From the IMG/VR virus record IMGVR_UViG_2627853869_000005: 28,629 bases of DNA; one strand, 5' to 3'. This DNA comes from a virus. Lineage: Duplodnaviria; Heunggongvirae; Uroviricota; Caudoviricetes. Numbering within the stretch: position 1 is the stretch's first letter; each line of letters begins with the position of its first letter. A program made the position numbers. Of this stretch, positions 25,901 through 27,809 are shown one piece after another.

Positions 25901-27809
25901 GCTTTCCCTTCAGGCGTGATTCATACAGCGGCCAGCCATCCGTCATCCATACCACGACCTCAAAGGCCGACAGCAGGCTCAGAAGACGCTCCAGTGTGGC
26001 CAGAGTGCGTTCACCGAAGACGTGCGCCACAACCGTCCTCCGTATCCTGTCATACGCGTAAAACAGCCAGCGCTGACGTGATTTAGCACCGACGTAGCCC
26101 CACTGTTCGTCCATTTCAGCGCAGACAATCACATCACTGCCCGGTTGTATGCGCGAGGTTACCGACTGCGGCCTGAGTTTTTTAAGTGACGTAAAACCGT
26201 GTTGAGGCCAACGCCCATAATGCGTGCACTGGCGCGACATCCGACGCCATTCATGGCCATATCAATGATTTTCTGGTGCGTACCGGGCTGAGAGGCGGTG
26301 TAAGTGAACTGTAGTTGCCATGTTTTACGGCAATGAGAGCAGAGATAGCGCTGATGTCCGGCAGTGCTTTTGCCGTTACGCACCACGCCTTCAGTAGCGG
26401 AGCAGGAAGGACATCTGATGGAAATGGAAGCCACGCAAGCACCTTAAAATCACCATCATACACTAAATCAGTAAGTTGGCAGCATTACCGATTTCTGCGG
26501 CGACACTTAATTCAGAACTCATTAATAAAATCGCGCAGGATTTTGCGCAGGCGACCAGCCTTGCGGTTGTCGTGGTCAATATTCACGGCGATGAAATTTC
26601 CGAGCTGTTTAACTTCACTCCATTTTGTCAGATGATGCGGCAACACCCTCAGCTAAGCACTCGATGTCGCATGAGCGATCGTTGTGGGGGCCTGGAAGCC
26701 TCTAAATCCGATCAGCCTTGTATTTATCGCTGTCATGCCGGATTAACCGATTTCTCTATTCCACTGGTAATCGCCGGGCATTTAGTCGGTTTTGTATTGT
26801 GCGGGCAAGTTCGTCTGCGTAATGATTATGTCGATTTGGTCGATATTCTGAATGTCGATGATTGCTGGCAGGCAGATCCCGAATTACTTAATGAATTTCG
26901 CAAAGTTCCTGAGATGGATTACTCAAGAGTTATGGCCTCTGCTGATTTGTTGAAGTTGATTGTAGAAAATTGCCTCAAAAAACAACTCAATTTTGTGGTT
27001 ATTAAAGAGAACAAATCTCAGTCAGATTCGGTGCGCCAGACTCGTGCGCCTAGTCCCCACGACAATAAAATGAAAAAAGCTTTACGCTATATTGATGCGC
27101 ATTTATCAGACGATTTGCGTCTGGAAGATGTCGCCTCGCACGTTTATCTAAGCCCTTATTATTTCAGTAAGTTATTCAAGAAATACCATGGAATCGGGTT
27201 TAATGCGTGGGTAAACCAACAACGGATGGCCAGCGCGCGTGAGTTACTGTGCCATAGTGACTGGAGCATCGCCAGCATTGCGCGTAATTTAGGTTTTTCG
27301 CAAACCAGTTATTTTTGCAAAGTTTTCCGTCAGACTTATCAGGTTACGCCGCAGGTGTATCGACAGCAAGTGAGTGAAAATGCGGCGATGGAAACGGTAT
27401 AGAGTAAATGCTAAAAAAAGGGAAGGTTTAAATAAACGCTGGAATGAATAATTAACGTTATTTACGTGTTATGGGAAAAGTAAAATCAGCTCATAACATA
27501 CGCTGACAGGTGTGGCACATTTGTGCCTGGGAAGAGAGTGAAAATCCCTCGCAGCCCCCGCTGCTGTAATGCTGACAAACCCGAAAATGCCACTGATCGC
27601 GAGATTGGGAAGGTCGGGAGAGGATGACGCTAAGCCAGAAGACCAGCCAGTCAGTCAATACCAACAACTTCGGTGGGAAGTGGGTTGCCCGGAAGCGTCC
27701 GGTAGAGTACAGGCGCGTCTTTATACCCCTACCACCCTGAAAGGATCAGGGTATGGCGGCATCATTTAGTTCTTTCATCGCAGTGCCGACAGGCACCATG
27801 AAGTGGTCA

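What the first reader, a model, noticed from the sequence alone, without database searches (positions are those of the whole stretch)
27495..27798. Cobalamin riboswitch retained while both flanking genes are hit by insertion sequences
The pocR-riboswitch-cbiA arrangement is the start of the Salmonella-type cob/pdu regulon. Here the B12 riboswitch and its RBS-sequestering hairpin are intact, but cbiA is cut after 15 codons by IS911 and pocR has lost its start codon to IS1. This is a snapshot of pathway decay typical of host-restricted enterics, and the riboswitch now sits upstream of an IS911 terminus.
Basis: partly seen in the sequence, partly recalled or inferred. Interest (0 to 1): 0.45.

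Follow-up and report, generated by a model that had tools for sequence, protein, structure and literature searches.

The report
Orphaned B12 riboswitch in Shigella boydii
This is a genuine vitamin-B12-sensing RNA switch left stranded between two insertion sequences in a Shigella boydii chromosome; it is an ordinary example of gene decay, and the B12-synthesis gene it once controlled had already been lost long before in all Escherichia.

Summary
Rfam's Cobalamin model (RF00174) matches window 27491-27665 (+) over its full length at 103.5 bits (gathering score 31.5, E = 3.7e-25). A conserved 7-bp hairpin enclosing the ribosome-binding site follows at 27734-27752, directly before an ATG at 27753.

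An IS1 (25722-26489) abuts pocR exactly at its start codon, so the "AT" of ATG is gone. An IS911-type IS3-family element starts at 27799.

The window is identical to Shigella boydii Sb227 (CP000036.1). In about 640 pdu-positive E. coli genomes and in other Escherichia species, the intact locus reads pduF-pocR-riboswitch-(44-codon stub)-(145-aa cbiG fragment)-cobUST. cbiA was therefore already a stub of about 16 codons, and cbiA-cbiP were already gone, before IS911 arrived.

IS911 is a clean 1248-bp insertion with a 3-bp duplication (CCA). It separates the riboswitch from cbiG'-cobUST, which continue just beyond the window; cobU is frameshifted in Sb227.

IS1 has no target duplication and joins pocR to a truncated prophage tail gene, which indicates a rearrangement. 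The riboswitch is most likely a silent relic: it carries one lineage-specific change that breaks a base pair. Known biology, low interest.

The parts
27491..27665 (+). Adenosylcobalamin (Cobalamin, RF00174) riboswitch aptamer of the cob leader
   Evidence: cmscan 103.5 bits, E = 3.7e-25, full model. The orthologous aptamers in E. coli, Salmonella, Citrobacter, Klebsiella and Hafnia score 102-114 bits.
27537..27537 (+). Lineage-specific G-to-A substitution that breaks a conserved G-C pair (27537 with 27547) in the 5-bp hairpin 27534-27538/27546-27550
   Evidence: The pair is G-C in 72 of 75 related loci. The base is G in both E. coli alleles examined. No E. coli genome has an identical aptamer; the best is 174/175. 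The score drops from 109.4 to 103.5 bits.
27666..27733 (+). Linker of the expression platform, including the block AACAACTTCGGTGGGAAGTGGGT that is invariant across 9 enterobacterial leaders
   Evidence: Alignments A1 and A2.
27734..27752 (+). Hairpin enclosing the ribosome-binding site (stem ACCCUGA/UCAGGGU, loop AAGGA), directly before the start codon
   Evidence: strand folding gives the hairpin within an MFE structure of -13.9 kcal/mol. The RNAalifold consensus keeps the seven stem pairs unchanged in 7-9 of 9 sequences. The sequence is identical to that of E. coli L001 and L091.
27753..27798 (+). First 15 codons plus 1 nt of the vestigial cbiA-derived stub ORF (44 codons in intact Escherichia), interrupted by the IS
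   Evidence: The ATG and about 16 codons align with cbiA of Salmonella, Citrobacter and Klebsiella. The ORF is 44 codons long in E. coli, E. whittamii and E. ruysiae and 43 codons in the fourth Escherichia sequence, L006.
27799..28629 (-). IS911-type IS3-family insertion sequence, IRR end towards the riboswitch. The transposase orfB (27807-28628) runs off the window. The full element is 1248 bp in the identical locus L084.
   Evidence: Pfam rve and NCBIfam transpos_IS3. E. coli copies are annotated as IS911 family. Bounds and the 3-bp CCA target duplication are seen in L084 at 11324-12571.
26490..27402 (+). pocR lacking the first two bases of its ATG and otherwise an open frame. An in-frame TTG at 26476 inside the IS1 end gives a 308-aa fusion ORF.
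   Evidence: Pfam PocR plus AraC HTH domains. NCBIfam PocR equivalog 552 bits, cut-off 500. Junction comparison with L001. D114Y is the only lineage-specific residue change.
25722..26489 (-). IS1 (768 bp), insA end towards pocR. It has no target-site duplication, and its left flank is a truncated lambdoid major-tail gene.
   Evidence: Pfam IS1 domains. The flanks AGGAATTTA and GATTTCTGC differ. The neighbouring ORFs carry Ig-like, tail assembly chaperone and tail protein T domains.
27403..27490 (+). Short spacer between pocR and the aptamer (88 nt). It lacks the roughly 200-255 nt of upstream cob control region present in Salmonella, Citrobacter and Klebsiella.
   Evidence: Alignment A1. Distances come from the pocR match ends and the aptamer starts. 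No sigma-70-like promoter or terminator is predicted on the + strand here.

Best explanation
The feature is the leader of the enterobacterial cob operon. It consists of an adenosylcobalamin riboswitch aptamer and a translational expression platform whose hairpin encloses the ribosome-binding site of the first gene. Here it survives as a disconnected relic in the Shigella boydii Sb227 lineage.

History, in three steps:
1. In the ancestor of Escherichia the corrin-ring genes were deleted. What remained was a cbiA stub of about 16 codons inside a 44-codon ORF, a degenerate N-terminal cbiG fragment and cobUST, still downstream of pocR and the riboswitch. The upstream cob control block was also lost.
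2. In the S. boydii lineage an IS1-mediated rearrangement removed everything upstream of pocR (pduF, the pdu operon, the pocR promoters and the AT of its ATG) and joined pocR to a truncated prophage tail gene.
3. An IS911-type element inserted cleanly, with a 3-bp CCA duplication, after codon 15 of the stub. This separated the leader from cbiG'-cobUST by 1248 bp of oppositely oriented IS.

Shown: the identity of each part, the junctions, the order of events relative to the genus, and the persistence of cobUST beyond the IS with cobU frameshifted.

Inferred: the leader now has no native promoter and no gene to regulate, so it is functionally inert and drifting. In intact Escherichia it gates translation of the stub ORF, and through it cobUST expression, in response to AdoCbl. 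That mechanism is taken from work on the Salmonella cob leader (Ravnum & Andersson 2001, reference found) and was not tested here.
For: Riboswitch:
- Rfam RF00174 at 103.5 bits, full length.
- The hairpin before the ATG is conserved across 9 leaders.

Source genome:
- Window 25701-28629 is 100% identical to CP000036.1, locus L084. That record is S. boydii serotype 4 Sb227 (PMC8767353).
- All 8 related assemblies share both IS junctions and the same aptamer.

State of the locus in relatives:
- Intact relatives read pduCBA / pduF-pocR-riboswitch-hyp145-cobU-cobS-cobT-ldtA with no cbiA.
- The stub ORF is 43-44 codons long in four Escherichia lineages.
- hyp145 matches NCBIfam CbiG NF004463 over positions 1-125 of 351 at 68 bits, far below the 546 cut-off. 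It is 39% identical to the N-terminus of the full Hafnia CbiG.
- DNA of the stub-to-cobU stretch is found next to cobU in 5398 of 5426 E. coli genomes.

Insertion sequences:
- IS911 is 1248 bp with a CCA|IS|CCA duplication, and the locus resumes collinearly at 97.3% identity with E. coli.
- IS1 lacks a duplication and has a truncated prophage gene on its other side.

Decay and context:
- cobU is frameshifted near codon 30 in 4 of the 5 assemblies tested and intact in 1.
- One lineage-specific, pair-breaking aptamer change is absent from all 644 E. coli aptamers.
- No sigma-70-like promoter is predicted on the + strand in 26300-27950.
- Among Shigella, the pdu cluster was detected only in S. 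sonnei by comparative genomic hybridization (PMC3225857).
Against: - Only one lineage-specific substitution lies in the aptamer and none in the platform. Sequence drift alone therefore does not prove loss of function; the time since the IS events may simply be short.
- pocR remains an open frame, and an in-frame TTG is supplied by the IS1 end. Gene callers accept it (listed in 248 blocks of the assembly collection). Residual expression of pocR with read-through into the leader is therefore not excluded.
- The promoter scan is a crude consensus search.
- No expression data were available.
- Whether the riboswitch regulates cobUST in intact Escherichia is an inference from synteny.
Confidence: 0.85

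Rival explanations
1. One reading: a Salmonella-type, complete cob operon was present in this lineage until recently, and IS911 itself truncated a full-length cbiA after 15 codons.
For: The ATG at 27753 and about 16 codons are orthologous to the cbiA start of Salmonella, Citrobacter and Klebsiella. The IS does interrupt that reading frame after codon 15.
Against: Beyond the IS, the identical S. boydii locus continues with the rest of the 44-codon stub, cbiG' and cobUST. It is collinear with E. coli at 97.3% identity, and the insertion has a simple 3-bp duplication, so nothing was deleted at the insertion. Every Escherichia relative carrying this leader lacks cbiA-cbiP. Nearly all E. coli genomes keep DNA of the remnant stretch next to cobU.
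Confidence: 0.03
2. The leader is still expressed and functional as a B12-sensing RNA with a new role. Transcription would come from the IS1 end or from within pocR. The RNA would then act as a B12-controlled antisense transcript running into IS911 orfB, or as a ligand-sensing non-coding RNA, by analogy with riboswitch-controlled antisense and sponge RNAs in Listeria and Enterococcus (own knowledge).
For: The aptamer still scores 103.5 bits and the platform is unchanged. No terminator is predicted between pocR and the aptamer. The IS911 transposase gene is on the opposite strand immediately downstream, so read-through would be antisense to it. The arrangement is fixed in all 8 assemblies examined.
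Against: No promoter is predicted on the + strand. The platform acts on translation through a ribosome-binding-site hairpin and is not a terminator, so ligand binding would not obviously change read-through. The one lineage-specific change breaks a conserved pair. Fixation in a clonal lineage is expected under neutrality. cobU decay shows that the B12 salvage module is being lost.
Confidence: 0.04
3. The leader is not yet a relic in the regulatory sense. PocR is still made from the IS1-derived TTG start, and the pocR-leader transcript matters for residual regulation.
For: A 308-aa open frame has all PocR and AraC domains intact and scores 552 bits against the PocR equivalog. It has only one lineage-specific residue change, D114Y. 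Intact cobU persists in one related assembly.
Against: The PocR targets are gone or uncoupled. pdu is absent from S. boydii by comparative genomic hybridization. The cob control block upstream of the aptamer is absent in all Escherichia with this leader. No promoter was predicted, and I saw no clear Shine-Dalgarno sequence before the TTG (my reading of the sequence).
Confidence: 0.08

Closest known systems
Salmonella enterica cob operon leader (pocR-riboswitch-cbiA; AdoCbl-repressed translational control, Ravnum & Andersson 2001)
   Same: Same gene order upstream (pocR, then leader). The aptamer is orthologous (Salmonella L017 scores 106.9 bits). The linker block and the hairpin before the ATG are conserved, and the start codon is orthologous.
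   Different: In Salmonella the leader is followed by a 459-aa CbiA and the cbi genes, and 343 nt of control region separate the pocR match end from the aptamer. Here only 15 codons of a stub remain before an IS, the spacer is 88 nt, and no cbi genes follow.
pdu-positive Escherichia coli locus pduF-pocR-riboswitch-stub-cbiG'-cobUST (e.g. CFSAN018748, FDAARGOS_536)
   Same: 98-99% DNA identity over pocR plus leader. The aptamer is identical at 174 of 175 positions in 254 genomes. The stub ORF and the cobUST neighbours are the same.
   Different: The E. coli loci have an intact pocR start, pduF and the pdu operon upstream, and no IS between the leader and cobUST. RefSeq already annotates the riboswitch there.
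IS-driven pseudogenisation in Shigella genomes (general phenomenon; own knowledge)
   Same: IS1 and IS911-type elements disrupt metabolic loci, one IS joins unrelated DNA, and there is an extra frameshift (cobU).
   Different: Nothing distinctive. This is one more locus of that kind.

Membership tests
Cobalamin riboswitch (Rfam RF00174) | Covariance-model score above the curated gathering threshold over the full aptamer | tested here: met
   103.5 bits against 31.5, model positions 1-189 of 189, E = 3.7e-25.
Cobalamin riboswitch (Rfam RF00174) | Conserved core sequence, including the B12-box region (AGCCAGAAGACC...GCC) | tested here: met
   The Rfam alignment matches the consensus through the AGCCAG-AGACC-GCC segment with high posterior probability. 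The columns spanning GCTAAGCCAGAAGACC are invariant across 9 leaders except for one variable position.
Cobalamin riboswitch (Rfam RF00174) | All helices of the aptamer base-paired | tested here: inconclusive
   Most pairs are intact. Pair 27537/27547 is A.C and is lineage-specific. Pair 27508/27649 is A.A and is shared with a common E. coli allele. The effect on ligand binding is unknown.
Cobalamin riboswitch (Rfam RF00174) | Binds adenosylcobalamin and changes expression of a downstream gene | not testable with these tools
   Needs in-line probing or ITC and reporter assays. Here no intact downstream gene remains within 1.3 kb.
Salmonella-type cob operon (pocR-leader-cbiA...cbiP-cobUST) | Full-length cbiA (about 459 aa, CbiA plus GATase_3 domains) directly after the leader | tested here: not met
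   Only about 16 cbiA-like codons exist in any Escherichia with this leader. The ORF is 44 codons long in intact relatives and 15 codons long here. Salmonella L017 has the 459-aa CbiA.
Salmonella-type cob operon (pocR-leader-cbiA...cbiP-cobUST) | cbiB-cbiP corrin-synthesis genes between the leader and cobU | tested here: not met
   In L084 (identical to the window) and in E. coli L001 and L091, only a 145-aa cbiG fragment lies between the stub and cobU.
Salmonella-type cob operon (pocR-leader-cbiA...cbiP-cobUST) | pocR immediately upstream, on the same strand | tested here: met
   PocR equivalog at 552 bits, ORF ending at 27402, 88 nt before the aptamer. The start codon is destroyed.
IS911 (IS3 family) | Length of about 1250 bp, terminal inverted repeats beginning TGAAGTGG, 3-bp target duplication, and an orfA/orfB transposase with an rve domain | tested here: met
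   1248 bp, ends TGAAGTGGTCAA...TGTGCCACTTCA, CCA duplication. rve and transpos_IS3 hits. E. coli copies are annotated as IS911 family. The canonical values are from my own knowledge.
IS1 | 768 bp, insA/insB genes and terminal repeats GGTAATG... | tested here: met
   25722-26489, with InsA and DDE_Tnp_IS1 domains. The ends read GGTAATGACTCC... and ...GGCAGCATTACC. The usual 9-bp duplication is absent, consistent with a rearrangement.

The most novel reading that the evidence does not exclude
The orphaned leader might still be transcribed, by read-through from the IS1::pocR fusion. It would then act as a B12-responsive RNA that runs antisense into the IS911 transposase gene, coupling transposition or transposase levels to cobalamin availability.

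A more modest and more likely variant concerns intact pdu-positive Escherichia. There this riboswitch may have been naturally re-wired, after deletion of all the cbi genes, to control the cobUST salvage operon through a vestigial 44-codon stub ORF whose stop overlaps the start of the cbiG fragment.
Probability: 0.04. Interest if true: 0.45.

Novelty: already known. Interest (0 to 1): 0.12.

Why it matters
The finding matters little beyond correct annotation. It is a clean, datable example of stepwise decay of the pdu/cob regulon. First came a genus-wide deletion of the corrin-synthesis genes. Then IS1 and IS911 events and a cobU frameshift followed in a human-restricted Shigella lineage.

The practical lesson is that a high-scoring riboswitch hit does not imply a regulated gene. 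A few matching N-terminal codons also do not show that a full gene was recently present.

The side observation may be worth a reporter experiment. About 12% of complete E. coli genomes keep this riboswitch directly upstream of cobUST with no cbi genes. That could matter for people studying B12 salvage and propanediol use in gut E. coli.

Tried and rejected
- My first comparison, against one E. coli allele (L001), suggested four aptamer differences, two of them pair-breaking and derived in Shigella. A search with the aptamer alone showed that 254 E. coli genomes match at 174 of 175 positions. Direct comparison with one of them (L091) showed that three of the four are standing E. coli polymorphisms. 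I withdrew the stronger 'decaying aptamer' claim; only 27537 G-to-A is lineage-specific.
- Pfam found nothing in the 145-aa ORF or the 44-aa ORF. NCBIfam and tblastn against Hafnia CbiG were needed to identify the 145-aa ORF as a cbiG fragment.
- I looked for similarity between the tail of the 44-codon ORF and the CbiF C-terminus via the Hafnia cbiA'-'cbiF fusion ORF. Only a weak HY(R/S)KL resemblance appeared, so this is not claimed.
- I looked for pdu DNA elsewhere in the window and found none. I could not scan the rest of the S. boydii genome with these tools and relied on a CGH paper.
- The promoter scan gave no + strand hit. A hand-spotted TTATTT-17-TAAAAT motif just upstream of the aptamer matches the consensus too poorly to claim.
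- Literature searches for a description of this exact Shigella locus returned nothing specific.
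Full report

Yes. A scan of the whole 28,629-nt window against Rfam 15 returns a single hit above gathering score. It is RF00174 (Cobalamin riboswitch aptamer) at 27491-27665 on the + strand: 103.5 bits against a threshold of 31.5, E = 3.7e-25, covering model positions 1-189 of 189.

Downstream, the sequence ACCCUGA-AAGGA-UCAGGGU (27734-27752) forms a 7-bp hairpin. Its loop carries the Shine-Dalgarno-like AAGGA, and its 3' arm ends one base before an ATG at 27753. The hairpin is predicted in the single sequence, although the z-score is a modest -1.5. It also appears in the RNAalifold consensus of nine enterobacterial leaders, where the seven stem pairs are kept unchanged in 7-9 of the 9 sequences.

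**2. The flanks**

- **Left.** ORFs with the InsA and IS1-transposase Pfam domains lie on the - strand. They define a 768-bp IS1 at 25722-26489.
- **pocR junction.** The base after the IS1 end is the G of the pocR start codon. Intact E. coli reads ...TTTTATCATGATTTCTGCG; the window reads ...GCAGCATTACC|GATTTCTGCG. pocR has therefore lost the "AT" of its ATG and everything upstream.
- **pocR body.** The rest of pocR is an open frame. It has the PocR sensory domain and AraC helix-turn-helix domains and scores 552 bits against the NCBIfam PocR equivalog, whose cut-off is 500.
- **Fusion ORF.** The IS1 end happens to supply an in-frame TTG at 26476. This gives a 308-aa fusion ORF that gene callers accept.
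- **Right.** TGAAGTGGTCAACAAAAACTGG... begins at 27799. It is the inverted repeat of an IS3-family element whose transposase orfB (27807-28628, - strand) runs off the window. Matching copies in E. coli records are annotated as IS911 family.

**3. Where the window comes from, and what lies beyond it**

Looking up the exact 308-aa fusion ORF found it in many NCBI assemblies. Window 25701-28629 is 100% identical to CP000036.1 (locus L084) and to a second assembly. It differs by at most 3 substitutions, or by 13 gapped positions (a 12-nt and a 1-nt gap), from six others. CP000036.1 is Shigella boydii serotype 4 strain Sb227 (PMC8767353).

These loci extend 10 kb further than the window and show the following:

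- The IS911-type element is 1248 bp long.
- It is flanked by a 3-bp direct repeat (…GGCACCA|IS|CCAGGGCTG…).
- After it the chromosome resumes collinearly with E. coli at 97.3% identity.
- The downstream order is: rest of the short ORF, a 145-aa ORF, cobU, cobS, cobT, ldtA.
- cobU is frameshifted near codon 30 in four of five assemblies tested, including Sb227, and is intact in one.

IS911 is therefore a simple insertion that removed nothing.

**4. What the downstream ORF was before the IS arrived**

- **Distribution.** The pocR-leader segment (26490-27798) is found at 95-99% identity in 646 of 5426 complete E. coli genomes, always on the chromosome.
- **Gene order.** In these genomes the annotated order is pduCBA (divergent), pduF, pocR, riboswitch, a "hypothetical protein" of 145 aa, cobU, cobS, cobT, ldtA. 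There is no cbiA.
- **The stub ORF.** The ORF that starts at the ATG orthologous to 27753 is only 44 codons long (MAASFSSFIAVPTGTRAALKV...). Its TGA stop overlaps the ATG of the 145-aa ORF. The same short ORF, of 43-44 codons, is present in E. whittamii, E. ruysiae and a further Escherichia sequence.
- **Orthology with cbiA.** Aligned with Salmonella, Citrobacter, Klebsiella and an Escherichia sp. that has a full operon, the aptamer, linker, hairpin and ATG all line up. Similarity to cbiA continues for about 16 codons (MAASFSSFIAVPTGT against MAARHHAFILAGTGS) and then stops. In those other genera the ORF is a 459-aa CbiA with CbiA and GATase_3 domains.
- **The 145-aa ORF.** It has no Pfam hit. 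It matches the NCBIfam CbiG equivalog NF004463 over profile positions 1-125 of 351 at 68 bits, far below the 546 cut-off. It is 39% identical to the N-terminus of a bona fide CbiG in Hafnia. It is a degenerate cbiG fragment.
- **How widespread the remnant is.** DNA of the stub-to-cobU stretch is found next to cobU in 5398 of 5426 E. coli genomes. In the listed pdu-negative records it is the 3' part, which one of them annotates as a partial "cobalamin biosynthesis protein".

The deletion of cbiA-cbiP is therefore old and common to the genus. IS911 hit a vestigial stub, not a cbiA gene. Its real effect was to uncouple the leader from cbiG'-cobUST.

**5. The IS1 side**

The 9 bp on the two sides of IS1 differ (AGGAATTTA and GATTTCTGC). 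The left neighbour is the 3' part of a lambdoid major-tail gene with an Ig-like domain. It is followed by tail assembly chaperone and tail protein T genes and the rest of a tail module.

A single IS1 joining two unrelated truncated genes without a duplication is the signature of recombination between two IS1 copies or of an IS1-promoted adjacent deletion.

No pdu DNA is present in the window or within 10 kb on either side in the related loci. A comparative genomic hybridization study reports the pdu cluster only in S. sonnei among Shigella (PMC3225857). I could not scan the whole S. boydii genome, so deletion versus relocation is not formally settled.

**6. State of the riboswitch itself**

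Against one E. coli allele (L001) the aptamer differs at four positions. A search with the aptamer alone then showed 254 E. coli genomes at 174 of 175 identities and none at 175 of 175. Comparison with one of these genomes (L091) shows that three of the four differences are shared E. coli polymorphisms.

The one change specific to the S. boydii lineage is G-to-A at 27537:

- It converts the 27537/27547 pair from G-C to A.C. That pair is G-C in 72 of 75 related loci from many genera.
- It lowers the Rfam score from 109.4 to 103.5 bits.

The expression platform has no lineage-specific change. This is compatible with relaxed constraint, but it is far too little to demonstrate it. "Intact" is essentially fair.

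**7. How it most likely works, or no longer works**

In Salmonella the cob leader represses translation of cbiA when adenosylcobalamin is bound. A hairpin masks the ribosome-binding site and an upstream enhancer element counteracts it. This comes from established literature (Ravnum & Andersson 2001, reference located) and my own knowledge; it was not tested here.

The same elements are conserved in the window. In intact Escherichia the leader would thus gate translation of the 44-codon stub. Through the overlapping stop and start it may also gate cbiG'-cobUST. That is an inference from synteny.

In all Escherichia with this leader, the spacer between pocR and the aptamer is only 88 nt. In Salmonella, Citrobacter and Klebsiella it is 287-343 nt, and a conserved upstream block in those genera is missing here. 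Transcription therefore probably depends on read-through from pocR. No terminator is predicted in between, and no sigma-70-like promoter is predicted on the + strand anywhere in 26300-27950.

In S. boydii the pocR promoters are gone, and the only thing downstream is the 3' end of an oppositely oriented IS. The best-supported conclusion is a promoter-less, target-less relic (confidence about 0.85).

**8. Rivals**

- **IS911 truncated a full cbiA.** Refuted by the collinear continuation beyond the IS and by all Escherichia relatives.
- **The leader is still transcribed and acts as a B12-responsive RNA, for example antisense to IS911 orfB.** Not excluded, but nothing supports it. The platform is translational rather than a terminator, no promoter is predicted, and the only lineage-specific change is disruptive.
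- **PocR is still made from the IS1-derived TTG.** Possible, but its targets are gone.

**9. Comparison with known systems, and novelty**

The aptamer is a member of RF00174, and the leader is the orthologue of the Salmonella cob leader. The locus is not a Salmonella-type cob operon, because the defining cbiA-cbiP genes are absent.

The riboswitch is already annotated in RefSeq E. coli genomes. The Sb227 genome has long been public, and IS-driven decay of Shigella metabolism is textbook knowledge. I rate the finding "already known" with interest about 0.12.

The only mildly interesting by-product is that about 12% of complete E. coli genomes keep a cob riboswitch directly upstream of the cobUST salvage genes, with a vestigial stub ORF in between. 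That would be easy to test with reporter fusions.

Noticed in passing
window 27403-27490; L017 6895-7237, L007 6913-7231, L032 6907-7193: In every Escherichia carrying this leader, the spacer between pocR and the aptamer is 88 nt. In Salmonella, Citrobacter and Klebsiella it is 287-343 nt. A block conserved in those genera (…GCAATATTTTGCTATTGCCGATTTTTGATA…), presumably the cob promoter and control region, is missing.
   Followed up: partly
L064 (Hafnia paralvei) 7570-8983; L050/L051 (Scandinavium) about 7400-7620; L052: Hafnia paralvei has a cbiA 5' stub fused to the C-terminal part of a tetrapyrrole methylase (cbiF-like), followed by a full cbiG. This is a deletion parallel to the one in Escherichia. 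Scandinavium and strain RIT691 also carry cbiG-fragment-like sequence right after the riboswitch. The deletions may be recurrent or the allele may have been transferred.
   Followed up: partly
window 26476-27402: The IS1 terminal repeat supplies an in-frame TTG 14 nt before the pocR remnant. This creates a 308-aa IS1::pocR fusion ORF that is called as a gene in many assemblies (listed in 248 blocks of the collection). PocR D114Y is the only lineage-specific residue change.
   Followed up: partly
L084 13231-13775 (beyond the window); L083, L086, L089; L088 intact: cobU, just past the IS911 element, is frameshifted near codon 30 in Sb227 and three other assemblies and is intact in CP026766.1. 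The frameshift is therefore younger than the IS events.
   Followed up: yes
L001 3855-3938 (-), L091 1351-1434 (-), and other intact loci: The Rfam sRNA STnc230 (RF02075) lies on the opposite strand between pduF and pocR in intact relatives. This region is removed in the window by the IS1 junction.
   Followed up: no
window 21893-24300 within the prophage at about 8000-25721: An IS66-family element (three ORFs, including a 533-aa transposase at 22593-24194) sits inside a lambdoid prophage tail module, between tail gene T and the tape-measure gene. The prophage is cut at its major-tail gene by IS1.
   Followed up: no
window 966-2170 (-), 2287-5954 (-), 6710-7906 (+): There is a second IS3-family copy (orfA and orfB). 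There is also a housekeeping block that includes a YebC-family regulator at 2843-3583 and aspartyl-tRNA synthetase at 4182-5954; the two other ORFs in the block (2287-2811 and 3612-4121) were not identified. An IS110-family transposase follows. At least five IS copies lie in 28.6 kb.
   Followed up: no
L002 (E. coli Combat13F7) 4001-4182: One E. coli genome keeps only the last 182 nt of this segment (the 3' part of the aptamer, the platform and the stub), joined to a pduO-like adenosyltransferase gene on the opposite strand. This is an independent deletion that destroys the riboswitch.
   Followed up: no
window 27508/27649: An A.A mismatch in the closing helix of the aptamer (A-U in 53 of 75 relatives) is not Shigella-specific. 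It belongs to a common E. coli allele; 254 genomes differ from the window aptamer by a single base.
   Followed up: yes
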